Shown here: positions 22,131 through 57,344 of the stretch, one piece after another
Layout of the letters: the number at the start of each line of letters is the position of its first letter
Numbering within the stretch: position 1 is the stretch's first letter
Source of the DNA: an uncultured virus (IMG/VR IMGVR_UViG_3300020048_000046)
Taxonomy: Duplodnaviria > Heunggongvirae > Uroviricota > Caudoviricetes
Virus record (IMG/VR): IMGVR_UViG_3300020048_000046
Strand: one strand, 5' to 3'
DNA: 64,000 nt
Program-made: the position numbers and the translations under genes
Notes under the pieces: model-generated
Told to the model about the DNA's origin: nothing
The model's database searches: none
Seen by the model: only the letters and a program-made list of their open reading frames with translations

Positions 22131-23167
22131 TGAAAACAACAAAATTTTCAAAATTAAGAGAAAAAAGACAGGAGTTATATAATGTTGAAGATTATACATT
22201 ATACCCTTTTAATTTTAATGGTGTAGATAAACAAGTTTATAGTAACGTTAATTTATCAATATTTGTTGATGATTATTGTAATGCAGACTGTTTATTTTGT
22301 GTTGCACAATTAAGATTTGAAAATAGAAGTAAAATGTTCAAAAAAGATAAAATAACTAATGATCAAGAATATTATGATAGGATAGATAGTATATTGGAAT
22401 ATTTAAAACCATTAAATCCAAGTGTTTCTATCACCGGTGGTGAACCATCAAAAAGTAAAAGACTCCCGGAAATTTTGAGAATTATAAATAAACATGGATA
22501 TAGAAAAAGAACACTTACAACAAATGGTAGTGGATTGTTCGATATTATGGACGGAAAAACAGTATTACAACATATTATTGATAATGGGTTTAGCCATTTA
22601 AATATAAGTAAAGCACATTATGATGAAGATATTAATTCAAAAATAATGAAATATCAAAGTGGTTATTGTTCGAATGAAATGATTGAAACAATTGCAACTA
22701 TATCTTTAGCTAATGGTTTAAGACCAAGATTAAGCTGTGTGCTTTTAAAAGATGGTGTAAATGATATTGAAAGTATGGTGAAATATATGGAATTTTATCA
22801 AAATATTGGTATAGATAATGTTATTTTTAGAGAATTGATGGATTTTGATGAGGAAAAAATGATCAACGAGGAAAAAATAAAATACAACATTGAAAATAAA
22901 ATTAAATTAAATGATATATGGACAAAAGTTGATCAAGATAAAAGGTTCAAACCAATTAGAAACCTTTTAGGGTATTATTATTATGTTGAAGTTTATAGAT
23001 TTGATAAAATTGATATGTGTTCTGAAGGAGCGAATTTGGTTAAATTATATGACGAAAAAGAAAAGCATAAAAATACGGTATATGAAATGGTTCTACATCC
23101 AAATGGTAATCTTAATGGTAGTTGGGTTGATGATGAAGATATTTTAAATGAATATAAAAAAAAATGA
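22130..23167 (+). CDS. radical SAM protein
   Basis: CNADCLFC, ITGGEPS, TTNGS, LNIS; no SPASM cysteines. Confidence 0.88.
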   Translation: MKTTKFSKLREKRQELYNVEDYTLYPFNFNGVDKQVYSNVNLSIFVDDYCNADCLFCVAQLRFENRSKMFKKDKITNDQEYYDRIDSILEYLKPLNPSVSITGGEPSKSKRLPEILRIINKHGYRKRTLTTNGSGLFDIMDGKTVLQHIIDNGFSHLNISKAHYDEDINSKIMKYQSGYCSNEMIETIATISLANGLRPRLSCVLLKDGVNDIESMVKYMEFYQNIGIDNVIFRELMDFDEEKMINEEKIKYNIENKIKLNDIWTKVDQDKRFKPIRNLLGYYYYVEVYRFDKIDMCSEGANLVKLYDEKEKHKNTVYEMVLHPNGNLNGSWVDDEDILNEYKKK

Positions 23168-29341: not shown

Positions 29342-30547
29342 TTAATTCCAGAAATCATCATTTTCTTCGTCAGTATAAAAACTTTCAGCATCTGTTATTG
29401 AATTATCCGGGCTTTCAATATGGGTTATGGTATTGGTTTCAATATAATCTTCAAAATCATCATACAAATCTTCTTCTATTATTACACAATCATCAGAGCT
29501 TATTATTTCAATATCATCATCATCATCTTCATCCTCTACTACGACATTTNNNNNNNNNNCATTTTTATTATATTTCTTTCCATTTACTTCAGATGAAAAT
29601 ATACTATTTAAAACAGATAATCTTTTATTTATAACTGGTAAACCAATTGGTACGATAAACCTATTTGCTATTTTTAAAAATGTTTTTTCAAATTGGGTAT
29701 CATAATCAACTTCAACACCTTCTTTTTCTACTATTTCTATTGGGTGGAAACTTCTCATATAAGAAAATCTTTCACCTAAATCATGTTTACAAAAGTAATA
29801 TTTAATTTTACCACCTCTTAATAAATCATACTTAGTTTTATATTTATCATTTTTATTCAAGAGATAATTATGTAATGCTGCCGATTTAACAGCATGGTGT
29901 GCCCCTTTAACGCATTCTACTCCGTTTTGGTCATCTAGGACCTTATTTTCATAATTACTGCAACTGGTGGTCATAGAAATATCTTCAATATCAGTCATTA
30001 TAAATTCTTTTTTCATATTTTTTATAATTTTTAGAAGATCTTGCATTTTTAAATTATCTGGATTTTTGAATAAATAATTTATAAAATCCCAAATATTTTC
30101 ACGGACAAATAACGGTGTAGAAGATTTTACTATTTCAACCCCCTTGGCACTATAATGAGATAAATCTTCATAAAAAACACCATCTTCCCAAACACAATTA
30201 TTAATATAATTCTTCTTCATAATATGAAGACCAGATTTATTAATAGTTTCAAGTTCAAAATCGTGTATGTTTTTTACACCATACGGTTTAGCATATTCTT
30301 CCAAATATTTTGTAAATAAGTGTTTAACAAATGCACCATTAAAATGTAATATCCATTTTAATTCATCTCCATCATAATCAACAGATTGCATCATTGGAGT
30401 CATAGAAATATATAAACTATTATGAACTAATATGTCATTTCCTATAAAAGTATGAGTTTCATCATCAACTTCTATATCATATACATATTCATCATTAAAA
30501 TCTCCAATACATTCTATTGTGTCTATATCATCTAAATAGTATTCCAT
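29342..30547 (-). CDS. family-B DNA polymerase C-terminal fragment with N-terminal split-intein C half
   Basis: Begins with 43-aa IntC (VYDIEV...TFIGNDILVHN), then SLYI, KKNY, KGVEIVKSSTP; acidic tail crosses an N gap. Confidence 0.9.
   Translation of the reverse strand: MEYYLDDIDTIECIGDFNDEYVYDIEVDDETHTFIGNDILVHNSLYISMTPMMQSVDYDGDELKWILHFNGAFVKHLFTKYLEEYAKPYGVKNIHDFELETINKSGLHIMKKNYINNCVWEDGVFYEDLSHYSAKGVEIVKSSTPLFVRENIWDFINYLFKNPDNLKMQDLLKIIKNMKKEFIMTDIEDISMTTSCSNYENKVLDDQNGVECVKGAHHAVKSAALHNYLLNKNDKYKTKYDLLRGGKIKYYFCKHDLGERFSYMRSFHPIEIVEKEGVEVDYDTQFEKTFLKIANRFIVPIGLPVINKRLSVLNSIFSSEVNGKKYNKNXXXXNVVVEDEDDDDDIEIISSDDCVIIEEDLYDDFEDYIETNTITHIESPDNSITDAESFYTDEENDDFWN
30419..30547 (-). mobile_element. 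split intein C fragment (IntC)
   Basis: Block F VYDIEV, block G ILVHN, +1 residue Ser. Confidence 0.9.
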
Positions 30548-30583
30548 TTTTATTGTTTTTGTGTTTTATATTTTAGTGTGTTT

Positions 30584-31732
30584 TTATTCATAAGTTTTAA
30601 TTTTTTCAACTAATTCGTCTGTTAATAATTCAATTCCTTTTTCTTTTAACTCTTTTTCCCAAACGATTATAACCTCTCTAACTTTTGTTTTGACAAAATC
30701 TATTTTTATTCTGTCTTTTTCCCATATAGTTTTTGCTAATAACTCCTTATCAAATGGGTTTGGTTTATCATATTCATCAAATTTTTCCGGATTAGCATGA
30801 AATAAATCCCCATTAAATTCAATGGCTATGTTTAATTCTTTAATATAGAAATCTATCAAATAATATTTTAGGTCATCATTAAACATTTTTTCTCGATTAT
30901 AATCATCTGCATAATAATATGTGTATTCTTTATCAATTTTTTCTTTTATTTTGTGAAATATTTTTTGTGATATTTCAGAATACCCAAACTCAAAATTGCT
31001 TTCAACTCTTTTTTCAGCAAAATTTCTATATTTTTCTCTACCGATATCTTCACCATATTCTTTTAAAAAATAATCTAATGAACATGTATATCTCTGCCTA
31101 TCAATATATTTTTTCCACATATCTTTTCCTTCAACTTCACCATGTCTAATAATAAGATTTTCTAATGTTGTTGATCTGGTTTTATTATATTCATTAAATT
31201 GTTTTTTTGTCCAACCATATTTTTCTTGTTTATATTCAAATGTATTGGTTTCCGATTGTTTCCTACAATATTCTTCCCAAGCGACCGTTCCATTTTCTAT
31301 GCCATGTTTAATAATCAAATTGTCTAATGTTATAGCGTAATTTTGTTGTTTCCATTCAGTAGAAACACTATCTGGTATATTAAAAGCATAATTTGTAATA
31401 TCACATATTCTATTAAAAACTCTACTTTTATTCAAAGTTTGGTATTCTGGGAATTTTTTTGTCAAACAATCTTCACAAACTGATAAATTGTATTTATTTC
31501 CTAATATTTCTTTTTGAGATAAATAAGATTTTTTATTAATATATAAATTAAAATCCCGATCAATAGCATAAGTTGAATCGTAATAATATATTGGACCATT
31601 ACAACATGTACATCTTTTATGTTCCGGGAAACATTCTAATAAAATATCATTATATAATTCTTTTGTTTTATTTTTCGAAAACCAGGTTGTCCACGTTTTA
31701 TTATATTTGTTGAAATTTTTTTTCTTAGTCAT
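30584..31732 (-). CDS. free-standing Vsr/PD-(D/E)xK-type homing endonuclease between intein halves
   Basis: CxxC pairs, repeated I.KHG..EG...W, IDFYIKELNIAIEFNGDLFH...D..K...IIVWE. Confidence 0.8.
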   Translation of the reverse strand: MTKKKNFNKYNKTWTTWFSKNKTKELYNDILLECFPEHKRCTCCNGPIYYYDSTYAIDRDFNLYINKKSYLSQKEILGNKYNLSVCEDCLTKKFPEYQTLNKSRVFNRICDITNYAFNIPDSVSTEWKQQNYAITLDNLIIKHGIENGTVAWEEYCRKQSETNTFEYKQEKYGWTKKQFNEYNKTRSTTLENLIIRHGEVEGKDMWKKYIDRQRYTCSLDYFLKEYGEDIGREKYRNFAEKRVESNFEFGYSEISQKIFHKIKEKIDKEYTYYYADDYNREKMFNDDLKYYLIDFYIKELNIAIEFNGDLFHANPEKFDEYDKPNPFDKELLAKTIWEKDRIKIDFVKTKVREVIIVWEKELKEKGIELLTDELVEKIKTYE

Positions 31733-31754
31733 TTTTTTCCCCTTTATAAAAGAT

Positions 31755-32111
31755 TTAATTTTTTACACATAATATTTTATCCGTTTTTAATATTTCACAA
31801 GGTTTAACTTCTATTTGCACATTGTTTCTAAACACAATCATAGAATGGTCATTAGTTACTATAATTTCTTTTCCACTTTTAGTTTTTAATATCCATTTAG
31901 CTTTAGTAACTTTATGTCTAATTATTCTTTTAACAGGCGCATAATACAAACCTTTTTCTTTATCATAATTTAATATTTTATCATAACACTTTACACTTTC
32001 GTGACCTTTTAATGTGTTTCCAGCAGAACCATTTATCATATTTCTATTGTATAATTCTTCTACTGTCAATTTGTCACTATTTGTTTGAATTAATGTGTCA
32101 TTTTGGCAACT
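31755..32111 (-). mobile_element. split intein N fragment (IntN, 118 aa)
   Basis: Block A starts at Ser right after YGDTD; block B KEIIVTNDHS; ends at stop codon without HN. Confidence 0.88.
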
Positions 32112-32756
32112 ATCAGTATCACCATAAATTATCAGAGGGGTTGATCTAACTCCTCTTGACTCATCAAATTTCTTAGATGTTGTGTCTGGATCAACTGAAT
32201 AGGTTTTTGGTATAGGTTTAACTTTGGAAAAATCGCAAATAAAACATTTGTGTACTGTTTCATATTTTTTTCCATCACATTCAAAAAATTCAATATCTGT
32301 ATCAACATAATCTGACGGACTCATATTATATGCTTCTAATATTTTTTGAATACCTGTTCCTTTATCATCATCTTTTCTTGGAAAATTGTCTATAAGTTTA
32401 CCATCTTTTCTAGTTAAATAATAACCATCATCTAATTTAGTGATGTAAATTATACCAAGTAGATCACGAATAGATTCATCTTTCCACCATTCTTCATAGA
32501 AATAATGTTCTATATGATCTAACATATAGTTAATAACTTCCCTGGATAGAGATGTTATTGAGTTAGCTATGTTCGTGTTTGAAATAGTAAAAGCCGGGTG
32601 ACAAAATGCACCGTAACTCCCATTCAGAACTAATTTTAGTCCGAGTTGCATTGCTTTAAAAAAATCTCGTTCACCCTTAACTTTATTAATTTTGCTTTTT
32701 AATTCTAAAATTTTTTCTCTTTTCTCTTTATCTGATAGATTATCAAATTTTCCCAT
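31755..32756 (-). CDS. family-B DNA polymerase middle fragment with C-terminal split-intein N half
   Basis: QLGLKLVLNGSYG (motif B), IANSITSLSR, YGDTD followed by intein SCQNDTLI...TNDH. Confidence 0.9.
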   Translation of the reverse strand: MGKFDNLSDKEKREKILELKSKINKVKGERDFFKAMQLGLKLVLNGSYGAFCHPAFTISNTNIANSITSLSREVINYMLDHIEHYFYEEWWKDESIRDLLGIIYITKLDDGYYLTRKDGKLIDNFPRKDDDKGTGIQKILEAYNMSPSDYVDTDIEFFECDGKKYETVHKCFICDFSKVKPIPKTYSVDPDTTSKKFDESRGVRSTPLIIYGDTDSCQNDTLIQTNSDKLTVEELYNRNMINGSAGNTLKGHESVKCYDKILNYDKEKGLYYAPVKRIIRHKVTKAKWILKTKSGKEIIVTNDHSMIVFRNNVQIEVKPCEILKTDKILCVKN

Positions 32757-32781
32757 ATTTATAAAATGTATTATATTTCTT

Positions 32782-32810
32782 ATTGTATTCAAAAAAACAA
32801 GAATAGTTTA
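32782..32810 (-). promoter_or_regulatory. putative phage promoter (AAAC-N18 class) for polymerase operon
   Basis: Minus strand TAAAC, N18, TACAAT, 25 nt before ATG 32756. Confidence 0.5.
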
Positions 32811-38880: not shown

Positions 38881-41800
38881 ATGGCTCAAGTTAAAGAGAA
38901 AAAACAAGAAGAATCCATAGTATTTAGTACAAAGGTAGTTGAAGAAATTCTCCACAAAGAAAATATGGGGTTAAAGTTAAAGAACTCTGAAAAGTTATGG
39001 TTGAATAATATGAAAGGTGTTAGAAGACCAAATGTACCATTTGCTATGACAAACGATGAAATAGGGGAATACTTAAAATGTAAAATGAGCATAAAGTATT
39101 TCATTGAAAACTATGTAAATATAAAACGTGAAGATGGTAGTATTGGTAAAATAAGTCTTAGAGATTATCAAAATGATATGGTAGATATCATGGACCAAAA
39201 TAGATTTTCCATTTTTATGTTCTCTAGGCAATCCGGAAAATCACAAGATTTGGATAGTTTAGTTTGGACAAAAAATGGAAAGTATAAATTTGGTGATTTA
39301 AAAATAGGTGATGATATATATGATGAATCAGGTGAATTAACTACAGTTGTTGGTATTTACCCACAAGGTATAAAAGATATATATGAAATTGAATTTTCTG
39401 ATGGGGTTAAAGTAAGAAGTTGTTCTGAACATTTATGGGAGGTTATAAAATATAAAAAGACTAAAATCGTACAATTGTCTGAAATAATGGAGAATTATTT
39501 AACTAGTAGAGGTGACTGTATATATTATGTTAAAATGAATAAACCGGTAAATTACCCTAAAAAAGAACTACCATTAGATCCATATTTTCTTGGTTTAATT
39601 ATTGGAGATGGTTCAACTAGAAATAATAGATTAAAGATATCTACTATGGATAAAGAAGTTGTAGATTATATATACACTCTTGAAGATGATGATATAGAAA
39701 TAAAAATAGATAATACGTGTGATTATAAAATAGTAAAAAAAATAAAAAAGAATACTAATAAACATAAATATATTTCAATATTAAGAAGTTTAGATTTGAT
39801 GGAAAAATATTCATATGAAAAACATATACCAGATTTATTCTTATATGGTAGTATTGAACAAAGATTAAATTTGCTTCAAGGTTTAATGGATACTGATGGA
39901 ACATGTTCGAAAAATTGTGTAACCTATACAACAACATCAAAACAATTAAGTGATAATTTTAGAGAATTATGTCATTCATTAGGAATTAGAACAAATATTA
40001 GAGAACGAATAACCTTTTTCACATATAACGGAATAAAAAAACAAGGGAGAACATCATACACTATTAGATTACTTATAAAAAATGGCTTTGAATATAATAT
40101 ATTCAGAATAAAAAGAAAACAAGAACTCATAAATAAAAAAATAAAAAAATATGATTGGGGCACAAAAAGAGGAATAGTAAATATAACACATATTGGAAAA
40201 AAAGAAGCACAATGTATAGAGGTTAATAATGATAGTCATCTATATTTAACCGATAATTATGTACCCACACATAATACTATAGGAACTAGTATTATGATCT
40301 TACATAAGGTTTTATTTTCGAATGATAAAAACATATTAATCGTTGGTAATAATGGGAATACGGTGTCTGAAAATATAAAGAAGATCAAGGATATTTATTT
40401 ACTTTTACCATATTTTCTTAAAAAAGGTGTTTTTAACTGGGCTGAAAAAACTATATCATTAGATAATGGCTGTAGAATAAAAACAGCAAACTGTACCGCT
40501 ACTGCTGGTATTGGTAATGCTGTTGATTTTTTATATTTAGATGAGTTTGCTAAAATCCCATCAAATATAAGTGAGGCTTATTATGGGGCGGTAGTTCCAA
40601 CAGTCTCATCTATTAATAATTCAAAAATTGTAATTACCTCAACTCCGGATGGTTTTAATTTATTTCATAAATTATTGACAGATGCTGAGAGAGATGAGGA
40701 AGACCCACAAAAGAATATGTATAAATCTTTACGTGTATATTGGCACCAGGTTAAAGGTAGAATGGATGTTAAAATATTACCATTAGCATATAAATTAAAG
40801 ACATACAGCTTAACAACAGATGAAATAATAGATGAGTTAAAAAATATGGGATATGATATATATGATAAAAATATTGATAATAAAACATATTATTTTATAA
40901 AATATGATATGGACGATGAAAAAACATCAATAGCAAATGTTAGAAATTTAAGAATAAATAATATTCCACTACAAGAATTATGTATTATTACAAATTGGAA
41001 AGAAGATGAAACTAAACTTATCGGTGGAGAGAATATGTTTAATCAAGAATATGATTTGCAATTTGTTACAGGAGATAAATTATTATTTGATTCAGAACAA
41101 ATGACTAAGTTTAAATCAGATTCCATAGATTTCAAGTATATACAATTTTCAAAATTAGATAATAAATTAACATTGCCATATACCCAATTGAAATGGTTAC
41201 AGGGAAGACCTGATATATTTGATGTTAATAAAATGAAGGAATATCATATTTGTGCATCGGTAGATTTAAGTGAAGGTCTTGGACAAGATTATTCTGTCTT
41301 GAATATTTTTAGGATATTACCAAAACCAGCAGAATTAATAGAAAAAACATATCAAAATTTATCATCTATATATGAATATTTTTACTTGGAACAAATTGGA
41401 GTATGTAGAGTAAATAATTGGAATATGAATGAATTTGCAGAAATGTTTTACATGGTTATGTTTGAATTATTTGATTCAGAAAAAATTAAAGTGGCTCTTG
41501 AATATAATACATATGGTTCAACTTTTTTACTAGAACTTACAAAAATATTTGATGGTGAGCACAATTATTCGAATGGTATATTTTTAAGATATAAACATAG
41601 AAAAGATGATATTCAAGCAAAAATAGGATTGAAAATAACTGGTGGAGAGAATGAAGCAAGTAAAAAATTATTGATAAAATCATTACAAAGTGCCGTAAAA
41701 AAACAATTAATTAAATTACACTATGATATGAGTGTTAATGAAATAAGTGTATTTACTAAAAAACTAACAGCTTCTGGAAATTTCACATATCAATGCGAAT

Positions 41801-42066
41801 CCGGAAACGATGATTTAACCATGACTCTTGTATCATTATCTAGTGTATTTGATCATGTTCAATATAAGAATTTAATAGATGATATTTTTGATAAACATCT
41901 TACACCGGCTGAAAAAAGTATAATTGAAAAATATGTTTATAATAAAAATTCAGATGAAAAAGTTAATTATGAATCAACAAAAAATATGTATAAAAAAATA
42001 TATAAAGGAAATGGTTTTCAAAAACCACAAGGATTCACACCATGGAAAAGTAGTCCATGGAATTAA
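38881..42066 (+). CDS. terL: terminase large subunit (T4 gp17-like) with intein
   Basis: LRDYQ, SRQSGK|T Walker A split by intein, LYLDEFA, ITSTPDG, FNQEY, VDLSEG.GQDYS, EYN, NDDLTM. Confidence 0.92.
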   Translation: MAQVKEKKQEESIVFSTKVVEEILHKENMGLKLKNSEKLWLNNMKGVRRPNVPFAMTNDEIGEYLKCKMSIKYFIENYVNIKREDGSIGKISLRDYQNDMVDIMDQNRFSIFMFSRQSGKSQDLDSLVWTKNGKYKFGDLKIGDDIYDESGELTTVVGIYPQGIKDIYEIEFSDGVKVRSCSEHLWEVIKYKKTKIVQLSEIMENYLTSRGDCIYYVKMNKPVNYPKKELPLDPYFLGLIIGDGSTRNNRLKISTMDKEVVDYIYTLEDDDIEIKIDNTCDYKIVKKIKKNTNKHKYISILRSLDLMEKYSYEKHIPDLFLYGSIEQRLNLLQGLMDTDGTCSKNCVTYTTTSKQLSDNFRELCHSLGIRTNIRERITFFTYNGIKKQGRTSYTIRLLIKNGFEYNIFRIKRKQELINKKIKKYDWGTKRGIVNITHIGKKEAQCIEVNNDSHLYLTDNYVPTHNTIGTSIMILHKVLFSNDKNILIVGNNGNTVSENIKKIKDIYLLLPYFLKKGVFNWAEKTISLDNGCRIKTANCTATAGIGNAVDFLYLDEFAKIPSNISEAYYGAVVPTVSSINNSKIVITSTPDGFNLFHKLLTDAERDEEDPQKNMYKSLRVYWHQVKGRMDVKILPLAYKLKTYSLTTDEIIDELKNMGYDIYDKNIDNKTYYFIKYDMDDEKTSIANVRNLRINNIPLQELCIITNWKEDETKLIGGENMFNQEYDLQFVTGDKLLFDSEQMTKFKSDSIDFKYIQFSKLDNKLTLPYTQLKWLQGRPDIFDVNKMKEYHICASVDLSEGLGQDYSVLNIFRILPKPAELIEKTYQNLSSIYEYFYLEQIGVCRVNNWNMNEFAEMFYMVMFELFDSEKIKVALEYNTYGSTFLLELTKIFDGEHNYSNGIFLRYKHRKDDIQAKIGLKITGGENEASKKLLIKSLQSAVKKQLIKLHYDMSVNEISVFTKKLTASGNFTYQCESGNDDLTMTLVSLSSVFDHVQYKNLIDDIFDKHLTPAEKSIIEKYVYNKNSDEKVNYESTKNMYKKIYKGNGFQKPQGFTPWKSSPWN
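39241..40275 (+). mobile_element. intein with LAGLIDADG endonuclease (345 aa)
   Basis: Starts SQDLDSLV after GK; CSEHLW (block B); LGLIIGDGS and LLQGLMDTDG; ends PTHN, +1 Thr. Confidence 0.9.
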
Positions 42067-50116: not shown

Positions 50117-51241
50117 ATGAGTGTAATTAATGTAAAAAGTCAAACAGAACTTTCAGGGTTCCATATTTTATTCCGTGGTGGAATACAAAAAGAAAGAAAA
50201 GGTTTCTTCGGGGTACAACATTTATGTGAGCACATTTTTTTCAAGTCTTTAGAACCATTATTAAATGATTTTGATAGATATGGTATAAGTAATAACGCAT
50301 ATACTTCTGAAAATGAGGTACTTGTATATTTCTATGGTTTAGATGAAAATTTGTCAAATTATAGAGAAGAAATTTTGAGTAAATTATTATCGTTTGATGT
50401 TACAGAAGAAGATTTTAACCGTGAAAAATTAGTTGTGATTAAAGAATATCTAAAATATTTTAATGTTCAAGAATATTCACACGGTTTAAATTTAAATAGA
50501 AAATTATTTGGTAGTTTTGGACCAATAGGCTTAAAAGAAGATTTAGACAATTTATCTTATGATGATTTTATGATCTACTTTAGAGATAATTTTTCAAAAC
50601 CACACACTATAATTAATGTTTCGAAAAATAGTGAATTTTCAACAGATATTGAATTTTCAACAGAATCTTTTGACGATGTAATTCATTATGGTCAATATGA
50701 TGTCCCATATGAACCATATGAAGGCAGAAATGGAATATCAAGTATAATTTATTTATCTGAAGTAATACTAGATGATTTCGCTCATGTTGATTTTATTTGT
50801 GATATGTTAGGTAGTGGATTACAATCTCCATTATATAAAATAATAAGAAGCGAAAAAAGTTTATGTTATTCTCTTAGTTGCTCATTGGATAGAATGACAA
50901 ATAAAAGCGGTCTAGTATGTATATCATCAGAAACAACTGATGAAAATGTTGAAGTATTTCAAAAAACAGTTGAATATATCTTATCTAATCCGGATATATT
51001 TATGACACAAGAAAGATTTGATATTGTTAAACAGGCATTAGAAATTAATATTAAAAAATCTGAAATCAACCGGTATAGTAATGTAAACAAATATATTACT
51101 CCTAAAGAATGGTTAATAGAACCTATCCTTAAAGATTTGACTTTGGAAAAAATCATGGAAGTATATTCTAAATATTTTGATTTTTCTAAATATTATAAAT
51201 CGATTGATGTTATTGAATTTCCAGAATCGATTAAAGAATAA
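50117..51241 (+). CDS. M16 (insulinase) family zinc peptidase
   Basis: GVQHLCEHIFF (HxxEH), NAYT, REKLVVIKE, SPLYKIIRSEKSLCY. Confidence 0.88.
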   Translation: MSVINVKSQTELSGFHILFRGGIQKERKGFFGVQHLCEHIFFKSLEPLLNDFDRYGISNNAYTSENEVLVYFYGLDENLSNYREEILSKLLSFDVTEEDFNREKLVVIKEYLKYFNVQEYSHGLNLNRKLFGSFGPIGLKEDLDNLSYDDFMIYFRDNFSKPHTIINVSKNSEFSTDIEFSTESFDDVIHYGQYDVPYEPYEGRNGISSIIYLSEVILDDFAHVDFICDMLGSGLQSPLYKIIRSEKSLCYSLSCSLDRMTNKSGLVCISSETTDENVEVFQKTVEYILSNPDIFMTQERFDIVKQALEINIKKSEINRYSNVNKYITPKEWLIEPILKDLTLEKIMEVYSKYFDFSKYYKSIDVIEFPESIKE

Positions 51242-51605: not shown

Positions 51606-52652
51606 ATGAAGAAAATAGAAATGAAATTTGATTGGGATGATATTTTAATTCCTGCAGACGTAATAACAGATATTGTACATCGTAAAGATGTAAATATTTT
51701 TGATAATAATGGATATTTGCCATTATTTACTGCACCAATGGATACAGTTATAAACAAAGAAAATTTACACATATTCGAAGAAAATAAAATTATTCCAATT
51801 TTACCAAGAACAGAAAAGATAGATAATTATGATAACTGGTTTTCCGTAGGTTTAAAGGACTTTGAAGATATTATTAATGAATCCCCTATTTGTACAATGA
51901 AAGTACTCTTAGATGTCGCAAATGGGCATATGAGTCAAGTTTTAGACTTAACTAAGAGAGCTAAAGAAAAATTCGGTGATAATATGACATTAATGGTTGG
52001 AAATATTGCTAATCCAAAAACATATGAAGTTTTATCTAATGCCGGTGCAGATTATATTAGATGTGGGGTGGGTAATGGCGGTGGTTGTTTAACAACTGAA
52101 CAGAGTGGCATTGGCTACCCTATGGCATCATTAATTAGTGAAATTTATGAAATTTCTTGTACCTTATTAAATCCAGCAAAAATTGTAGCTGATGGTGGTT
52201 TTAAAAAATATGCTGATATTATAAAAGCACTTGCATTAGGAGCAGACTATGTTATGATTGGAAGTATCTTTAATAAAGCATTAGAAAGTTGTGGTGACAC
52301 ATTTAGAGAAATAAAAGTTCATAATAGTTGGTCAGAACCCGGGGAACTAGTTAATCAATATAATATAGATATTAAGAATATGTTTAAAAACGGTACAAAT
52401 TTTTATAAGAAATTTAGGGGTATGAGTACAAAAGATGTTCAAAAATCTCTTGGAAACACTGAATTAAAAACATCTGAAGGAATTAGTAAAATAAATAAAG
52501 TTGAATACACATTAGATGGATGGGTGGACAATTTTAGTCACTATTTAAGAAATAATATGTCATATACTAATTGTTTTGAATTAAATGAATATATTGGGAA
52601 AGTCGAATATGTTATGATTACACCGAATGCTTTTAAAAGATTTAATAAGTAA
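51606..52652 (+). CDS. GMP reductase / IMP dehydrogenase family enzyme (no CBS domains)
   Basis: APMDTV, DVANGH, GVGNGGGCLT (catalytic Cys), VADGG, GADYVMIG, FRGMS, SEG. Confidence 0.85.
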   Translation: MKKIEMKFDWDDILIPADVITDIVHRKDVNIFDNNGYLPLFTAPMDTVINKENLHIFEENKIIPILPRTEKIDNYDNWFSVGLKDFEDIINESPICTMKVLLDVANGHMSQVLDLTKRAKEKFGDNMTLMVGNIANPKTYEVLSNAGADYIRCGVGNGGGCLTTEQSGIGYPMASLISEIYEISCTLLNPAKIVADGGFKKYADIIKALALGADYVMIGSIFNKALESCGDTFREIKVHNSWSEPGELVNQYNIDIKNMFKNGTNFYKKFRGMSTKDVQKSLGNTELKTSEGISKINKVEYTLDGWVDNFSHYLRNNMSYTNCFELNEYIGKVEYVMITPNAFKRFNK

Positions 52653-53032
52653 TGAACATAACTTTGAATCAACCAATTACAAATATTAAAAAATTATCTA
52701 AATTAGATTATATTAATCGCTTAGATGACCATAGCAATATATCATTATATTATATTATTTGTAATGAAATTCAAAAATATCATTATATGTTTTGGGATTT
52801 AGAAACAATTTTAAAATTAAAAAATACGGTATATCAGATTATTATCTCATTTTACCAAGAATATAGTCAAACACATATTGATGATATTATTGATGTAGAT
52901 ATTGATATATTATCAATAGTTTTTAAAAATGGATATTTAAATAATATAATTTATAATCCAATAGATAAACATAAAATTATTTCAGAATTTAGAGAAATAA
53001 AATTAAAAAGAATTTTAAATAAACATTTTTAA
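52652..53032 (+). CDS. hypothetical protein with REIKLKRIL tag
   Basis: 126-aa ORF. Confidence 0.6.
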   Translation: MNITLNQPITNIKKLSKLDYINRLDDHSNISLYYIICNEIQKYHYMFWDLETILKLKNTVYQIIISFYQEYSQTHIDDIIDVDIDILSIVFKNGYLNNIIYNPIDKHKIISEFREIKLKRILNKHF

Positions 53033-53048
53033 TTATTTCAACTATAAT
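53020..53048 (+). promoter_or_regulatory. putative phage promoter (AAAC-N18-TATAA) for the MKIRNG array
   Basis: TAAAC 53020-53024, N18, TATAAT 53043-53048. Confidence 0.55.
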
Positions 53049-53085
53049 AAAAAAAGCAACATATAAATAATAGGAGGAAATAAAA

Positions 53086-53439
53086 ATGAAAATTAGAAAT
53101 GGTTTTGTAAGCAATTCAAGTTCAAGCAGCTTTGTTATTTTTGGAGCATGTTTGGATAAATCAGAATTATTTGATTTGGTTAAATCAACATTAACAGAAG
53201 AACAAATTAAGTATATTCAAGAAGATGGTGAAAGTCTAACTGAATTTTTGGACCCAACCACAAAATTAAAGATTAGAGAAGATTATGAGTGTGAAGAAAT
53301 TTATATCGGAAGAGATTGGTCTTCTATTGGTGATGATGAAACCGGTAGACAATTCAAAGAAAATGTTGAATCTGAGATGTGTAGAATATTAGGGAAAAAT
53401 ATAGATTGTAGAACACTCGATATAACAATAGGAGGTTAA
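53086..53439 (+). CDS. MKIRNGFVSNSSSSSF-leader protein 1
   Basis: Shared 16-aa N-terminus. Confidence 0.8.
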   Translation: MKIRNGFVSNSSSSSFVIFGACLDKSELFDLVKSTLTEEQIKYIQEDGESLTEFLDPTTKLKIREDYECEEIYIGRDWSSIGDDETGRQFKENVESEMCRILGKNIDCRTLDITIGG

Positions 53440-53440
53440 T

Positions 53441-53818
53441 ATGAAAATAAGAAGTGGTTTTGTAAGTAATTCATCTTCAAGTTCTTTTATCATATTATTA
53501 CCAGATAACTTCAATGTTGATAAACATGTTGAAGAACATTGGGATGAGTTTGACTCCAATAGTATTGGTGATATTATAGATGAGTTTGAAGATGAATTTG
53601 AAGAAGGTATGGATGAGGACATTTTCGCAAAAGAAAAGGTTAAAGATATGATTAACAAATTTATTAAAGATGGTTATGTTGATCAAGAAGGATTATCATA
53701 TTATATTATTGATAGTTGTTTGGATGATTATTGTATTGCCAGTGTTGAAGTTTCAAGCGATTATGGAACAGGCACATTAGCGAATAAAGAACAAATAAAA
53801 AAAATATTAGGGATATGA
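53441..53818 (+). CDS. MKIRSGFVSNSSSSSF-leader protein 2
   Basis: Shared N-terminus, acidic body. Confidence 0.8.
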   Translation: MKIRSGFVSNSSSSSFIILLPDNFNVDKHVEEHWDEFDSNSIGDIIDEFEDEFEEGMDEDIFAKEKVKDMINKFIKDGYVDQEGLSYYIIDSCLDDYCIASVEVSSDYGTGTLANKEQIKKILGI

Positions 53819-54270
53819 AAATAAGAAATGGTTTTGTAAGTAATAGTTCAAGCAGTTCATTTGTGTGTAATGTTTGTGGTTCTGAATGTAGTGGGTGGGA
53901 TATGAATCTGAATGAAGCAGAAATGATGGTATGTGAAAATGGACATATTTTTTGTGATACACATGCAATATTGAACAATAAAGAATTATCAATATTACTA
54001 TTGGAAAAAAATTCAAAAGATAATGATCTATTAGAAGAAGTTAAAAATTCAAATATGTGTAATTATGATTATGATGATATTTTGGATAAATATGATTCAA
54101 GATATGAATGTCCTAAAGAGAATTGTCCAATATGTTCAATGGTAAATATATTAGATAAAGATATGCTCAATTATTTATTGAAGAAATATAATATTTCAGC
54201 CGTTGAAGTTAAAGATAATATTAAAAAAGAATTTAATTCTTTTGAAGAATTTAAAAATTATATAAAATAA
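53815..54270 (+). CDS. MKIRNG-leader protein 3 (Cys/His-rich, likely Zn-binding)
   Basis: CNVCG, CENGHIFCDTH, CPKENCPIC. Confidence 0.8.
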   Translation: MKIRNGFVSNSSSSSFVCNVCGSECSGWDMNLNEAEMMVCENGHIFCDTHAILNNKELSILLLEKNSKDNDLLEEVKNSNMCNYDYDDILDKYDSRYECPKENCPICSMVNILDKDMLNYLLKKYNISAVEVKDNIKKEFNSFEEFKNYIK

Positions 54271-54271
54271 C

Positions 54272-54556
54272 ATGAAAATAAGAAATGGTTTTGTAAGTAA
54301 TAGTTCAAGTAGTTCATTCATTATCCTGGGGGTTAAATCAAATGAACAATATGATGGTCCGGGTATAGATTCAATATATATTGAAGAACCTGATTATGAT
54401 TATGTCAACGGAATTAAAATAATTGATAGTGATTATTTTGATGAAATTGAGGAATTGTCTTTAGATACTATGAATGAATATGTTGAAAAAATATCAACAA
54501 CCCTAAATGTTGAAAAAAGTGAAATAAAATTAATTTATGGTTGTAGACAATGTTAA
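54272..54556 (+). CDS. MKIRNG-leader protein 4
   Basis: Shared N-terminus; ends YGCRQC. Confidence 0.8.
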   Translation: MKIRNGFVSNSSSSSFIILGVKSNEQYDGPGIDSIYIEEPDYDYVNGIKIIDSDYFDEIEELSLDTMNEYVEKISTTLNVEKSEIKLIYGCRQC

Positions 54557-54573
54557 AATGAAAATAATAAAAT

Positions 54574-54931
54574 ATGAAAATAAGAAACGGTTTTGTAAGT
54601 AATAGTTCAAGTAGTTCATTCATTGTACATGGTACAGAATTATCATTAGAGGAATCTTCTAAATTATTTGTGGATGATGATTATTATACCTTTTCATACA
54701 AAAATAATATTATAATAAAACAAAATAGATATTATTTTGGTGGAGAATTAGACGGATATATTATTGGTATATCTGGTGGAGAATTATCTGATGGTGTAGT
54801 AACAAAAAATAGATAATTTAACTGATGAAGATAAACAAGAAATTGTAGAGAAATTGAGATTTTTGGGTATTGATAGAACGATAGATGATATTTTTGTTTA
54901 TGCACAATATGTAAGTAATGATAATTATTAA
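54574..54931 (+). pseudogene. MKIRNG-leader protein 5, +1 frameshift
   Basis: Removing one A from A6 at 54804-54809 extends the ORF (...KIDNLTDEDKQEIV...YVSNDNY) to TAA 54929-54931. Confidence 0.65.
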
Positions 54932-54947
54932 AAAATAAAAATAAATT

Positions 54948-55340
54948 ATGAAAATAAGAAATGGTTTTGTAAGTAATAGTTCAAGTAGTTCATTTTTGAT
55001 TTTATCAAAAAATGGTGAGTTATCAAAAGAAATTTTGTTGAATAGTTTTAATGTAAGTGATAAATCTCCATTATATCCTATGGTTAAACAAATGGTAAAA
55101 GAAATCATTAATTCATCTGAAGAATTATCGATTGATGATTATATTCAAAATTATTATCATGATGAAGAAGATATGAAAGAAATTGATCCAATAAGATATG
55201 AAATGATTGAAAAAGTAAGAAATAATAATTGGAAAATTTACATTAGTGATGCTGATAGTTGTGATCAACCGGCATTGTGTGAAATGGAATTGAATTATGA
55301 AGATGATAATATTTTAATTGAAAAAGAAGGAGGTTATTAA
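54948..55340 (+). CDS. MKIRNG-leader protein 6
   Basis: Shared N-terminus. Confidence 0.8.
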   Translation: MKIRNGFVSNSSSSSFLILSKNGELSKEILLNSFNVSDKSPLYPMVKQMVKEIINSSEELSIDDYIQNYYHDEEDMKEIDPIRYEMIEKVRNNNWKIYISDADSCDQPALCEMELNYEDDNILIEKEGGY

Positions 55341-55341
55341 T

Positions 55342-55719
55342 ATGAAAATAAGAAATGGTTTTGTGAGTAATTCAAGCTCAAGTAGTTTTATTTTAATTGG
55401 TGTTAAAATAATGAATAATAAGAATATTATCAAAGAATTATGTCAGAAATATTTTAACAATGAAACAATTTTATCATATGGTAATCCAGAAGATTTGAAT
55501 TTTGATTGGTATGAACTATTTTTTGAAAATAACGATAAATTTAATTTTGATATCATTTATACTGATAATATTTTATATTTGGGTGAAAAATTATTTGACG
55601 GAGATGAATTAAGTGATGGTATAATTAAAATAAATGATATTGTTTCGTGCACCGAAAAAATGAAAAAATATTTTCCGGATGATGATTGTGGTATACATTA
55701 TGGAACATATTATTGTTAA
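55342..55719 (+). CDS. MKIRNG-leader protein 7
   Basis: Start at ATG 55342; ends YGTYYC. Confidence 0.8.
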   Translation: MKIRNGFVSNSSSSSFILIGVKIMNNKNIIKELCQKYFNNETILSYGNPEDLNFDWYELFFENNDKFNFDIIYTDNILYLGEKLFDGDELSDGIIKINDIVSCTEKMKKYFPDDDCGIHYGTYYC

Positions 55720-55796
55720 ATGAATGAAAAATCTCTTAGGAGATTTTTTTTATAATAATAAAATACCTATCTTTGCAAAAAAATAAGAAAAAACAT

Positions 55797-56468
55797 ATGA
55801 AAATAAGAAATGGTTTTGTGAGCAATAGTTCAAGTAGTTCATTTATTGTTATTTGGGATAAAAAGCCGGAATCAATTGATGAGATACAAAAAATATTATT
55901 CAATGATCAAAAATTTATACAGCATTATTCGGATAAACATAGTACAGCATTATTATCAAAAAGAATTTTGAATGATACATATGGTGCATCAGAGGAAGAT
56001 ATATTAGATTTTATTGGTGGGTTATTTGATTTTTCAGATTACGGAGGTTTTAAATGGTATAATAAGGGATATAAACCAGATCAGTTATTATTAGATCAAT
56101 TTGAGGAAGAACACCCAGTCATAAAAAAATTATTAAGCGATAGCTGGGATATTGTGAAGAAATATTCGGATAAGGATAGAATTAGAATAAATAGGATATT
56201 GAAGCTTAAAACAATATTAGATGATAAAATATCTGACTATGATAAAGAATATATCACAGCCGAAAAAAATATTGATTATTGTAACAGGATATTATACGGA
56301 AAAGAAAATAAGCACACATTAGATTCATATCAAAAATTTATGACGGATTTTAAAGATAAGTTTATATCCATATATGAGTTTAGTGATAATAGTGGTTCAT
56401 TAGAATCTTGTTTAGAACATTACGGTGTATTTGATAATTTAACTTATTTTACCATTAGTCAACATTAA
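55797..56468 (+). CDS. MKIRNG-leader protein 8
   Basis: Start at ATG 55797 after a hairpin (~55727-55751) and TATCTTTG 55768-55775; internal RILKLKTIL. Confidence 0.8.
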   Translation: MKIRNGFVSNSSSSSFIVIWDKKPESIDEIQKILFNDQKFIQHYSDKHSTALLSKRILNDTYGASEEDILDFIGGLFDFSDYGGFKWYNKGYKPDQLLLDQFEEEHPVIKKLLSDSWDIVKKYSDKDRIRINRILKLKTILDDKISDYDKEYITAEKNIDYCNRILYGKENKHTLDSYQKFMTDFKDKFISIYEFSDNSGSLESCLEHYGVFDNLTYFTISQH

Positions 56469-56647: not shown

Positions 56648-56853
56648 TATATTTTATTGTTTGGATGGCTATTGGATTATTATTTCATTTGCTTTCCTTT
56701 ACCATAGTTTTAAATAGAAATAAATTATTGGATGATCCGTTATTAAACGATTTTACGAATGATATAAGTATTTTTTTAATTACCGTGATTATGTTTATTT
56801 TATTAGGTCCTTTAGTATTATTGTTTCTAATAAAAAAAAGCACATCCAACTGA
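56644..56853 (+). CDS. small two-helix membrane protein
   Basis: Two hydrophobic segments. Confidence 0.55.
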   Translation: MIYFIVWMAIGLLFHLLSFTIVLNRNKLLDDPLLNDFTNDISIFLITVIMFILLGPLVLLFLIKKSTSN

Positions 56854-56866
56854 TGTGCTTTTTTTT
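56832..56866. terminator. bidirectional intrinsic terminator
   Basis: A8-gcacatc-caact-gatgtgc-T8 between convergent genes. Confidence 0.8.
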
Positions 56867-57344
56867 ATTTTTGTTTAATTATATAATTTTTCCAGGTTAA
56901 ATTATTTTGATTTGGTATATTTATATTTTCTATATTCACATCTAAATCAATCCCTTTATTTTCACACATTTTTATTAGTTTTTTGACTAATGGTTCAGAT
57001 AGTTCATTTGGTGAGGTATATACCGTATAATCATTTTCGATTTTACTAATAGCATAATTTAACCATATATTCATATCCGAGATATCTTCTCTATTCATTT
57101 TTCCAGATAATGTAACGGCACCGAGTATAATTAATAATTTGTTTCCCTCACAATAGTTTATTAAAAGATTTCCACTATCTGATTTTTTTGTAATTGCTTT
57201 TCTGGATGGTGTCATTCTAAGAGCCATCTGATCACCTTGTTTAATCATGTTTAAGAGATTATCATCATAGTGTAAAGACACAGCATCATAATATTCATCT
57301 ATATTTGCTTCTTGTTCTTCAAATAATTTAAATGTTGTTATCAT
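56865..57344 (-). CDS. hypothetical protein with MITTFKLFE N-terminus
   Basis: 159-aa ORF. Confidence 0.65.
   Translation of the reverse strand: MITTFKLFEEQEANIDEYYDAVSLHYDDNLLNMIKQGDQMALRMTPSRKAITKKSDSGNLLINYCEGNKLLIILGAVTLSGKMNREDISDMNIWLNYAISKIENDYTVYTSPNELSEPLVKKLIKMCENKGIDLDVNIENINIPNQNNLTWKNYIIKQK

What the first reader, a model, noticed from the sequence alone, without database searches (positions are those of the whole stretch)
53020..56468. Eight tandem genes sharing the leader MKIRNGFVSNSSSSSF on divergent bodies
Seen: starts at 53086, 53441, 53815, 54272, 54574, 54948, 55342 and 55797; 15 of 16 residues are invariant while the bodies (94-223 aa total, acidic, one Zn-finger-like) share little. 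Serine codons switch between TCN and AGY among copies, so selection is on the peptide, not a DNA repeat. Seven form one tightly spaced operon under an AAAC-N18 promoter; the eighth has its own -7 element. Inference: the leader is a recognition or processing site (enzyme-modified leader, autoproteolysis exposing an N-terminal Ser, or a polymerising strand) for a family of variable effectors. I recall similar motifs in uncharacterised proteins but know no function.
Basis: partly seen in the sequence, partly recalled or inferred. Interest (0 to 1): 0.82.

Follow-up and report, generated by a model that had tools for sequence, protein, structure and literature searches.

The report
Shared N-terminal tag on phage proteins
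Eight neighbouring genes of a large AT-rich phage all begin with the same 16 amino acids although the rest of each protein differs, and in related phages such gene arrays usually sit beside a radical-SAM enzyme that may act on this shared tag.

Summary
Eight same-strand genes (53086-56468) start with MKIR[N/S]GFVSNSSSSSF, with different Ser codons among copies. They match PHROG 7397, function unknown. A profile finds 9,650 cluster representatives, in virus-dominated clusters. Tandem arrays of 1-13 tagged genes are usual in large viral contigs. With the tag removed, 89 of 91 subfamily pairs show no profile similarity.

In two AlphaFold models, residues 1-12 are low-confidence and residues 13-20/24 form the first beta-strand. 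I read the tag as a portable docking or modification site.

The best partner candidate is a radical-SAM/SPASM enzyme, "R" (PHROG 7293). It lies within 8 kb of the array in 43 of 64 tag-baited loci, on the same strand in 39 of 39. Conversely, 64 of 80 R-baited loci hold tagged genes. A fold of R with a tagged protein gave only weak support.

Against this:
- The window has no R in 64 kb.
- One complete genome has a tagged protein but no radical-SAM gene.

Gene 5 is frameshifted. No modification is shown and no paper was found. Confidence is 0.45.

The parts
53020..53077 (+). Upstream region of gene 1. It holds a sigma-70-like match (53020-53048), TATAAATA (53062-53069) and AGGAGG (53072-53077).
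   Evidence: Neither promoter-like motif is more frequent than in shuffles, so this is only a candidate. The AGGAGG was read by eye.
53086..53439 (+). Tagged gene 1, 117 aa, pI 4.45. 'YIGRDWSSIGDDETG' subfamily, with 21 members in 19 loci.
   Evidence: AlphaFold model: pLDDT 77.4, residues 1-12 under 50, strands and helices in beta-alpha-alpha-beta-beta-alpha-beta order.
53441..53818 (+). Tagged gene 2, 125 aa, pI 4.14. Its subfamily has 10 members in 6 loci. Tag position 5 is Ser.
53815..54270 (+). Tagged gene 3, 151 aa, with 9 Cys. Zn-ribbon-like subfamily, 16 members in 13 loci.
   Evidence: C21, C40, H44, C47, C104, C107 conserved. Pfam RING-like hits only at E 0.14-0.31.
54272..54556 (+). 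Tagged gene 4, 94 aa, ending ..LIYGCRQC. One clustered relative.
54574..54931 (+). Tagged gene 5, interrupted. Frame 0 runs 54574-54816 (80 aa). The +1 frame runs 54809-54931 (40 aa) after an A-run.
54948..55340 (+). Tagged gene 6, 130 aa, ending ..EKEGGY. Its subfamily has 9 members in 9 loci.
55342..55719 (+). Tagged gene 7, 125 aa, a paralogue of gene 5 (E 2e-07).
55720..55753 (+). AU-rich hairpin followed by a U-run, between genes 7 and 8. It looks like a terminator.
   Evidence: -9.5 kcal/mol, z -2.5. The terminator scan did not list it because it has too few G-C pairs.
55797..56468 (+). Tagged gene 8, 223 aa. This is the most widespread subfamily, with a conserved C-terminal motif ..EYSDNxG..LEHG..F....ISHH at the very C-terminus.
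   Evidence: PHROG 7397, 2.3e-12; pLDDT 92.5.

Best explanation
The eight genes belong to a very large, phage-restricted superfamily (PHROG 7397). In it an invariant 16-residue N-terminal tag, M-K-[ITV]-R-x-G-F-V-S-N-S-S-[ST]-[STA]-S-F, is joined to many unrelated small acidic bodies.

Shown here:
- the tag;
- its strictly N-terminal position;
- the unrelatedness of the bodies;
- the tandem arrays of distinct, individually conserved subfamilies;
- the genomic coupling to a radical-SAM/SPASM gene in relatives.

Inferred:
- Residues 1-12 form a flexible tail that docks to one shared partner.
- The partner is most likely the radical-SAM/SPASM enzyme 'R' (PHROG 7293).
- R modifies the Ser-rich stretch post-translationally, before or during folding, because residues 13-20 become the first beta-strand.
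- One enzyme would thus mature a whole repertoire of small acidic phage proteins, in the way one RiPP maturase serves many precursors that share a leader.

The chemistry and the function of the bodies remain unknown. In this window no R gene is visible, so R would have to lie in the unseen part of the genome, be replaced by another enzyme, or be dispensable.
For: 1. Tag invariance in homology-defined alignments. In 48 gene-8-type proteins M1, K2, R4, G6, F7 and S9-F16 are invariant, against 26% mean column identity. In 21 gene-1-type proteins the pattern is the same except R4 (90% or more) and positions 13-14, which vary S/T/C.

2. N-terminal position. The S-N-S motif sits at offset 8 in 234 of 242 distinct proteins.

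3. Unrelated bodies. The bodies form 86 BLAST clusters. In hhalign of the 14 largest subfamilies with the tag removed, only 2 of 91 pairs exceed 80% probability. The third best is 26% and the rest are under 5%. Gene 3's subfamily puts a Zn knuckle directly after the tag.

4. Low-confidence tail. Residues 1-10 have mean pLDDT 48 in the gene-8 model (overall 92.5). Residues 1-12 are under 50 in the gene-1 model. Strands start at residue 13.

5. Coupling to R in tag-baited loci.
- R has CX3CX2C in most members, a SPASM domain (PF13186, 3.2e-05) and matches PHROG 7293 at 2.7e-108.
- It lies in 43 of 64 tag-baited loci, a median 307 bp from a tagged ORF.
- Of 39 loci with both, all 39 have R on the same strand. 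17 have no intervening ORF and 8 have one. R is upstream in 33.
- 8 of the 21 other records hold R elsewhere.

6. Reverse bait. 64 of 80 R-baited loci hold at least one tagged ORF within 10 kb. Of the 60 that share no sequence with the first set, 45 do.

7. Cultured phages.
- Vibrio phage D479 has R and 5 tagged genes within 12 kb on one strand.
- Cronobacter phage GAP161 has R and 2 tagged genes.
- R is found in 173 phage records, and the two tagged proteins in 175 and 174, in the same genera. This is essentially one clade.

8. Fold of R with a native tagged protein, with 3 4Fe-4S clusters and SAM. The verdict was 'weak support'.
- The score was 0.42 (three runs: 0.24, 0.42, 0.65). The best of 3 controls scored 0.02.
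- The mark was reached by 116 of 157 solved complexes and by 2 of 215 mismatched pairs.
- At 0.60 or under it was reached by only 18 of those 157, and by both mismatches that passed.
- The runs agree in at least 37% of contacts. The partner's pLDDT is at least 36.
- My own alignments and riding ligands lie outside the tool's calibration.

9. R's nearest characterised relatives, all at weak scores, include peptide and protein maturases: SkfB, MftC, PqqE, StsB and GeoRSP.
Against: - No R in the window. tblastn gives a best E of 0.47. With the R profile, only the unrelated radical-SAM ORF at 21465-22130 matches, at 4e-06, which is superfamily level. The rest of the contig could not be fetched.
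- One complete 224.8-kb virus record (G007) has one tagged, gene-8-type protein. It has no R, and no Radical_SAM match at E <= 0.001.
- Two records that are 79% and 88% complete hold 6-7 and 3 tagged genes, other radical-SAM genes, and no R.
- In GAP161 the tagged genes lie 20-24 kb from R.
- The second half of the tag is a core strand in both models. A folded protein would bury part of the Ser run.
- The complex score is weak, and no contacts were given.
- R's weak relatives also include small-molecule enzymes: BtrN, NirJ2 and GDGT-MAS.
- No modification, binding or expression has been measured.
Confidence: 0.45

Rival explanations
1. The tag docks to a different shared partner. This could be a host protein, a phage assembly, or other tagged proteins by beta-strand pairing. 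R would then be linked to the arrays for another reason, such as acting in the same pathway or sharing a gene module.
For: - The tag is just as invariant in genomes without R and in this window, which lacks R.
- The tail is low-confidence in monomer models, as expected for any docking motif.
- The bodies are small and acidic: median pI 4.77, and 81% are under 5.5. This is typical of phage inhibitor proteins (from my own knowledge).
- Distinct subfamilies recur once per array, which would also fit a multi-subunit set.
Against: - No other neighbour recurs as R does. The next most frequent is a GMP-reductase-like gene, in 11 of 65 regions counting the window.
- The adjacency of R is same-strand and often without any intervening ORF.
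- Oligomerisation was not tested.
Confidence: 0.25
2. This is one ancient fold family. All bodies would be diverged versions of a small alpha+beta domain whose first strand and N-terminal loop form a conserved active or ligand site. The motif would then be structural or catalytic, not a tag.
For: - In both models residues 13-20/24 are the first strand, and the protein ends with a strand.
- The gene-1 model has beta-alpha-alpha-beta-beta-alpha-beta order. Its weak Foldseek list is rich in ferredoxin-like domains, but all rows are at E above 0.1.
- Each subfamily has a conserved extreme C-terminus (..ISHH..WYDG..GGY..YGxRxC). These could meet the Ser run.
Against: - 89 of 91 subfamily pairs show no profile similarity.
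- The Zn-ribbon subfamily starts its metal site right after the tag.
- Residues 1-12 are the most conserved part but are not packed in either model.
- 100% identity of 12-14 residues across bodies with no detectable similarity is unlike ordinary divergence of a fold.
- Only 2 of 86 body clusters were modelled.
Confidence: 0.15
3. The tag is a capsid-targeting or packaging signal like that of the T4 internal proteins. It would send diverse proteins into the prohead and then be cut off by the prohead protease.
For: - The phage has a T4-type large terminase.
- A short shared N-terminal sequence on unrelated bodies in variable loci is how the T4 internal-protein signal looks (recalled).
Against: - No conserved residue or Glu sits at a fixed place after the tag; positions 17-30 have no residue above about 40%.
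- Cutting there would remove the first core strand.
- The proteins are acidic, whereas T4 internal proteins are basic (recalled).
- In GAP161 the tagged genes and R sit among small genes whose annotation notes cite NudE, Frd.1, gp39.1 and Vs.1. In T4 these are early or middle genes (recalled).
Confidence: 0.07
4. The repeat is a nucleic-acid element, such as a translation or regulatory signal or a recombination site, and the peptide is incidental.
For: Five of the eight copies share nearly the same 48 nt.
Against: - The other three copies, and relatives in other phages, encode the same peptide with different Ser, Gly, Phe and Val codons.
- The motif is always in frame at the start of an ORF.
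Confidence: 0.02

Closest known systems
PHROG 7397 (tagged proteins) and PHROG 7293 (the radical-SAM/SPASM neighbour), both labelled 'unknown function'
   Same: All eight window proteins match the first 18-44 positions of phrog_7397, at E 2.3e-12 to 3.3e-03. R of locus L033 matches phrog_7293 at 2.7e-108.
   Different: The PHROG entries carry no function, and no link between the two is recorded in them. PHROG 7397 is a 170-position model that fits only the gene-8 type beyond the tag.
RiPP precursor families with a conserved leader and variable core, matured by one radical-SAM/SPASM enzyme. Examples recalled from the literature: subtilosin SboA/AlbA, SCIFF/ranthipeptides, the Nif11 and nitrile-hydratase-like leader families, and prochlorosins.
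   Same: - An invariant N-terminal segment sits on divergent C-terminal parts.
- Several tandem genes occur together.
- A radical-SAM/SPASM gene lies directly beside them on the same strand in relatives.
   Different: - The bodies are 60-250 aa. The two that were modelled are predicted to fold (pLDDT 77-92), and they fall into individually conserved subfamilies rather than being short cores.
- The tag is only 16 aa and its second half is part of the fold.
- No recurrent peptidase or exporter is present.
- No recognition-element domain is evident in R, which has only about 50 residues before the cluster motif.
- The system is viral, and R is absent from this window.
Capsid-targeting sequence of the phage T4 internal proteins IPI, IPII, IPIII and Alt (recalled)
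   Same: It is a short shared N-terminal sequence on unrelated bodies, encoded in variable tandem loci of T4-type phages.
   Different: - There is no conserved cleavage motif after the tag.
- The tag contributes a core strand.
- The proteins are acidic.
- In cultured relatives the genes sit in what look like early-gene neighbourhoods.
Anaerobic sulfatase-maturating enzyme acting on Ser or Cys of sulfatases (recalled)
   Same: A radical-SAM/SPASM enzyme modifies a Ser in a conserved motif of whole proteins rather than of short peptides.
   Different: - The sulfatase motif (C/S)xPxR is absent from the tag.
- The maturase family is not among R's listed NCBIfam matches.
- The bodies are not sulfatases.

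Membership tests
PHROG 7397 | A significant match to the family profile | tested here: met
   8 of 8 proteins match, at E 2.3e-12 (gene 8) to 3.3e-03. For genes 1-7 the match covers only the N-terminal 18-33 residues.
RiPP-type leader/maturase system (radical-SAM/SPASM) | A maturase gene is encoded beside the precursor genes | tested here: not met
   This holds for the window itself: no R in 64 kb. It is met in relatives: 43 of 64 tag-baited and 64 of 80 R-baited loci.
RiPP-type leader/maturase system (radical-SAM/SPASM) | The precursor is a short peptide with a disordered leader and a short core that is released | tested here: not met
   The proteins are 80-223 aa. The two models are folded, with pLDDT 92.5 and 77.4. 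No recurrent peptidase is a neighbour. The window's M16 peptidase gene has no counterpart in the 64 loci.
RiPP-type leader/maturase system (radical-SAM/SPASM) | The enzyme binds and modifies the conserved segment | tested here: inconclusive
   weak support. Score 0.42, best control 0.02, partner pLDDT at least 36, no contacts reported. Any modification cannot be tested with these tools.
T4-type capsid-targeting sequence | A conserved protease site directly after the shared N-terminal sequence (recalled as Leu/Ile-x-Glu) | tested here: not met
   positions 17-30 of 242 proteins have no conserved Glu or other fixed residue.
T4-type capsid-targeting sequence | The proteins are packaged in the virion | not testable with these tools
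   No proteome data were found. The one paper read on KP15/KP27 (PMC5219037, passages only) has none of the search terms 'mass spectrometry', 'ESI-MS' or 'structural proteome'.
Radical SAM superfamily with SPASM domain (for the neighbour R, not a window gene) | A CX3CX2C cluster motif and a C-terminal Cys-rich SPASM domain | tested here: met
   (PF13186, 3.2e-05). C56, C77, C256, C281, C299 and C348 are invariant and C74 nearly so; CX3CX2C was read in most members. The representative L048 has wider Cys spacing.
Zn-ribbon / treble-clef (gene 3 body) | Paired CxxC/CxxH knuckles conserved in the family | tested here: inconclusive
   The Cys and His residues are conserved in 13-16 of 16 members. 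Pfam zinc-finger models match only at E 0.14-0.31. No model was built.

The most novel reading that the evidence does not exclude
A dedicated phage radical-SAM/SPASM enzyme reads a 16-residue N-terminal tag and installs an as yet unknown modification in its Ser run. It does so on dozens of unrelated, folded, acidic phage proteins. This would be a virus-encoded, leader-guided maturation system that works on whole proteins instead of peptides. It would be spread over thousands of large-phage genomes, including cultivable T4-like phages of E. coli and Vibrio.
Probability: 0.35. Interest if true: 0.9.

Novelty: new variant of a known kind. Interest (0 to 1): 0.8.

Why it matters
The tag defines one of the larger uncharacterised protein sets of big phages. 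A profile finds 9,650 cluster representatives at 50% identity, and single genomes carry up to 15 copies. The tag is invariant across bodies that share nothing else.

If the coupling to the radical-SAM/SPASM gene reflects enzyme and substrate, two things follow:
- It would extend leader-guided radical chemistry from small peptides to whole viral proteins.
- It would give one biochemical handle on dozens of orphan phage gene families at once.

The system is directly testable, because cultured phages carry the enzyme and two to five tagged proteins. These are the RB43/RB16/GAP161 group and Vibrio phage D479.

If the partner is instead a host factor, the tag would mark a large repertoire of host-directed effectors.

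Tried and rejected
Family libraries
- Pfam, NCBIfam and PADLOC scans of the eight proteins gave nothing at or near the cut-offs.

DNA and protein searches in the phage collection
- blastn of the region found no match.
- tblastn of gene 8 found no match. Relatives in cultured phages were found only via R and then by pattern.

Fold searches
- Gene-8 model: Foldseek against PDB and BFVD gave no row at E <= 0.001. VIA-align wide gave a best Z of 5.5, and only on the helical insert 90-174. The beta core was barely tested.
- Gene-1 model: VIA-align wide gave a best Z of 4.4. Foldseek against PDB gave a best E of 0.19.
- These results show no match. They do not show that the folds are new.

Other structure and sequence look-ups
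- Profile searches of PDB sequences with A2 and A4 found nothing below E 0.2.
- The ESM Atlas listed mostly unnamed viral clusters; the few named rows had TM of 0.32 or less.

Getting more of this genome
- No whole genome is held.
- A 40-nt string from the window's end is absent from viral contigs and from metagenome contigs.

Other rejected ideas
- T4-late-type TATAAATA and sigma-70-like promoter motifs are not above chance.
- The M16 peptidase gene 1.8 kb upstream as a leader peptidase: it has no counterpart in the 64 loci.
- A link to the unexplained restriction resistance of phage KP27: KP15 and KP27 both carry a tagged gene. The paper puts the restriction difference down to homing endonucleases unique to KP27, not to shared genes (PMC5219037, passages read).
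- The +1 tail of gene 5 against gene 7 by BLASTP gave no alignment. The frameshift rests on other relatives.

Literature
- Four motif strings, matched anywhere, gave 0 papers.
- Searches on phage radical SAM, SPASM and RiPP terms gave nothing on this family.
- PMC5332604 (passages read) only notes T4-like marine viral genomes with up to 12 radical-SAM genes.

Earlier findings of the scan
- Look-up by sequence gave one unrelated note.

Full report
**What is in the window**

The 64-kb window has 24.8% G+C. It carries the genes of a large tailed phage:
- a T4-type large terminase interrupted by a LAGLIDADG intein (38881-42066);
- a family-B DNA polymerase in intein-bearing pieces;
- an NAD-dependent ligase;
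- an SNF2 helicase-methyltransferase fusion;
- two adjacent radical-SAM genes (21465-23167);
- M3 and M16 peptidases.

The terminase is closest, at 39-46% identity, to 'uncultured phage' records of 635-735 kb.

Between 53086 and 56468 lie eight + strand ORFs that begin MKIR[N/S]GFVSNSSSSSF. Fifteen of the 16 positions are invariant. A 23-nt pattern for the first codons hits these eight places and nowhere else, and none of 100 shuffles had a match.

The serine codons differ among copies and differ much more in relatives. The conservation is therefore on the peptide. All eight products are acidic, pI 4.1-5.4.

The genes are packed with 1-17 nt gaps or a 4-nt overlap, with two exceptions.
- The 131-nt 'gap' after gene 5 is the displaced end of gene 5. 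The gene stops at 80 aa just after an A-run. The +1 frame opens two codons before that point and runs 40 codons to 54931. This tail matches the extreme C-termini of two family members, at E 0.005 and 0.009 among 242 sequences. One of them (L011_4925) is also a top match of the 5' part. Gene 5 is otherwise a paralogue of gene 7.
- A 10-bp AU-rich hairpin with a U-run separates gene 7 from gene 8.

Sigma-70-like and T4-late-like motifs occur upstream of gene 1, but neither is above chance in this AT-rich DNA.

**The family**

Pfam, NCBIfam and PADLOC give nothing. PHROGs places all eight in phrog_7397, 'unknown function', through the N-terminus.

Gene 8 has 70 relatives in the 5.8-billion-protein collection, none named by its source beyond 'hypothetical protein'. 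In an alignment of 48 of them the tag is invariant. So is a C-terminal motif..EYSDNxG..LEHG..F....ISHH, whose last His is the last residue.

A profile of that alignment finds 9,650 cluster representatives at E <= 0.001, of which 803 are at <= 1e-30. The nearest ESM Atlas clusters are 80-100% viral and carry no Pfam family.

A scan of IMG/VR returned 64 loci on contigs of 6-548 kb.
- With the window, they hold 283 ORFs that carry the motif.
- All lie on the bait's strand, in arrays of 1-13.
- Four loci had none by my regular expression.

Among one genome for each of 185,579 prokaryote species, only 144 stretches match the peptide pattern. The 10 confirmed loci are metagenome bins or phage-like contigs.

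A caveat on invariance: my collection regex fixes S9-F16 by construction. The invariance of M1, K2, R4, G6 and F7 and the N-terminal position rest on the homology-built alignments and.

**The bodies are not one detectable family**

After the first 20 residues are removed, the 242 distinct proteins fall into 86 BLAST clusters.

| Subfamily | Members | Loci |
|---|---|---|
| Gene-8 type | 33 | 32 |
| 'MDNFDM' type (absent from this window) | 24 | 23 |
| Gene-1 type | 21 | 19 |
| Gene-3 Zn-ribbon type | 16 | 13 |
| Gene-2 type | 10 | 6 |
| Gene-6 type | 9 | 9 |

- The gene-8 count is biased upward, because that type was the bait.
- Each type mostly occurs once per array, so the arrays are sets of old, distinct paralogues and not recent duplications.
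- In profile-profile comparison of the 14 largest subfamilies (91 pairs), two pairs are related (92% and 86%). The third best is 26% and all others are under 5%.

**Structure**

| Model | Mean pLDDT | Tail | Secondary structure |
|---|---|---|---|
| Gene 8 | 92.5 | residues 1-10 mean 48 | strands 13-20, 189-196, 216-222; long helical insert 96-184 |
| Gene 1 | 77.4 | residues 1-12 under 50 | strands 13-24, 62-66, 71-77, 109-116; helices 25-35, 38-47, 87-102 |

The gene-1 order is beta-alpha-alpha-beta-beta-alpha-beta.

So in both models the second half of the tag is the first strand of the body. The first half, the most conserved part of the protein, is not packed.

No fold search gave a convincing match. 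The weak Foldseek rows for gene 1 are mostly ferredoxin-like domains, at E above 0.1.

**The conserved neighbour**

I clustered all 1,603 ORFs of the 64 loci and the window's last 20 kb. One non-tagged family stands out. It has 46 ORFs in 43 of 64 loci, a median length of 354 aa, and lies a median 307 bp from a tagged ORF. I call it R.

What R is:
- It is a radical-SAM/SPASM protein, with a SPASM domain at 3.2e-05.
- CX3CX2C is present in most members, behind a conserved N-terminal YNYxF..GFFxRWGKTxxDDP segment.
- Further invariant Cys residues lie in the C-terminal part.
- It matches PHROG 7293, 'unknown function', at 2.7e-108.
- Its characterised relatives match only weakly: SkfB 4e-04, BtrN 7e-04 and GDGT-MAS 2e-03 in the PDB. 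In NCBIfam it matches a tungsten-enzyme maturase, MftC, NirJ2, GeoRSP, PqqE and StsB, all far below their cut-offs.

How R sits relative to the arrays:
- In the 39 loci that hold both, R is on the same strand in all 39.
- 17 loci have no intervening ORF, 8 have one, 4 have two and 10 have three or more.
- R is upstream of the array in 33.
- Of the 21 loci without R, 8 records hold it elsewhere.

The reverse test:
- Of the best 80 of 178 R-baited viral loci, 64 hold at least one tagged ORF within 10 kb.
- Of the 60 that share no sequence with the first set, 45 do.

Cultured phages:
- R is in 173 of 50,697 records. These are the T4-like phages of about 178 kb that infect Klebsiella, Enterobacter, Cronobacter, Citrobacter and E. 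coli (GAP161, Margaery and the like), plus Vibrio phage D479.
- GAP161 has two tagged genes (155 aa and 170 aa, the latter of gene-8 type), 20-24 kb from R.
- These two proteins occur in 174 and 175 records, among them RB43, KP15 and KP27, of the same genera. This is one clade and counts as little more than one event.
- D479 has R and five tagged genes within 12 kb on one strand.

A fold of R with a native gene-1-type protein from the same locus, with three 4Fe-4S clusters and SAM, gave 'weak support'.
- The score was 0.42 (runs 0.24, 0.42, 0.65) and the best of three controls scored 0.02.
- The mark was reached by 116 of 157 solved complexes and 2 of 215 mismatched pairs.
- At 0.60 or under it was reached by only 18 of those 157, and by both mismatches that passed.
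- The runs agree in at least 37% of contacts, the partner's pLDDT is at least 36, and no contacts were reported.

**What speaks against R as the partner**

- The window has no R. tblastn gives a best E of 0.47. The R profile finds only the unrelated radical-SAM ORF at 21465-22130, at 4e-06.
- In related loci a GMP-reductase-like gene, R and the array follow one another. In the window the same GMP-reductase-like gene (51606-52652) is followed by an orphan 126-aa ORF and then the array.
- The contig is longer than the window. The cluster record names a longest contig of 121,139 nt. I could not fetch the rest.
- One complete 224.8-kb virus record has a gene-8-type tagged protein. It has no R, and no Radical_SAM match at E <= 0.001.
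- Two records that are 79% and 88% complete have 6-7 and 3 scattered tagged genes, other radical-SAM genes, and no R.

The coupling is strong but not obligatory.

**Reading**

An invariant, strictly N-terminal, unpacked 12-residue tail on bodies that share nothing else is best explained by one common external partner. I hold this general inference at about 0.8.

The only candidate the genomes offer is R. By analogy with leader-guided radical-SAM/SPASM maturases, the likeliest mechanism is docking of the tail and modification in the Ser run, before the strand folds in. I put this at 0.45.

The rivals are:
- another shared partner or hetero-oligomerisation (0.25);
- a single diverged fold with the motif as its active loop (0.15);
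- a T4-like capsid-targeting signal (0.07);
- a nucleic-acid element (0.02).

**Known or new**

Neither the motif strings nor phage radical-SAM or RiPP terms retrieve any paper on this family. The two papers I opened (PMC5332604 and PMC5219037, passages only) do not treat it. Supplements were not consulted.

The family exists in PHROGs without a function. The closest known logic is the RiPP leader with its maturase. This system departs from it in acting, if at all, on whole folded proteins of many families, in a virus.

Noticed in passing
window 54574-54931: Tagged gene 5 is split by a one-base frameshift in an A-run. It may be a pseudogene, a homopolymer sequencing error, or programmed slippage.
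   Followed up: yes
window 38881-42066 and 29342-32792 (- strand): The large terminase carries a LAGLIDADG/Hom_end intein insert. The family-B DNA polymerase appears as three consecutive ORFs. The two outer ones (29342-30547 and 31755-32792) have intein-splicing-domain hits; the middle one (30584-31732) has no Pfam hit.
   Followed up: no
window 21465-23167: Two adjacent radical-SAM genes, one of 221 aa with a maturase-like N-terminal half and one of 345 aa that is MoaA-like. Neither is the R type associated with the arrays.
   Followed up: partly
window 51606-52652: An IMPDH/GMP-reductase-like gene (phrog_9582, 'dehydrogenase') recurs near the arrays in 10 other loci, with up to 62% identity. 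In seven of those loci R lies between it and the array or next to it.
   Followed up: partly
window 50117-51241 and 18631-20421: M16 (insulinase-like) and M3 peptidase genes are present in a phage. The M16 gene lies 1.8 kb upstream of the array but has no counterpart in the 64 related loci.
   Followed up: partly
window 5922-8849: A 975-aa fusion of an SNF2/ResIII helicase with a C-terminal Methyltransf_8 domain.
   Followed up: no
window 56829-56869: A strong 18-bp hairpin with T-runs on both sides lies between the convergent gene blocks downstream of gene 8. It is probably a bidirectional terminator.
   Followed up: no
L074 (genome contigs record titled Flagellimonas marina, contig of 178,077 nt): This contig carries two tagged proteins of 170 and 155 aa, the same lengths as the two of Cronobacter phage GAP161. 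The 170-aa one is identical over the printed first 40 and last 25 residues; the 155-aa one differs at a few printed positions. The contig is probably a T4-like phage genome inside a bacterial assembly.
   Followed up: partly
L021, L051, L059 (viral loci): In these loci the R gene appears in two pieces. One piece in L059 begins with a sequence that ends ..LVHNC before the cluster motif. This suggests an intein or a homing-endonuclease insertion in R.
   Followed up: no
L048:1926-2990: This R homologue has a CX7CX6C spacing where most R proteins have CX3CX2C.
   Followed up: partly
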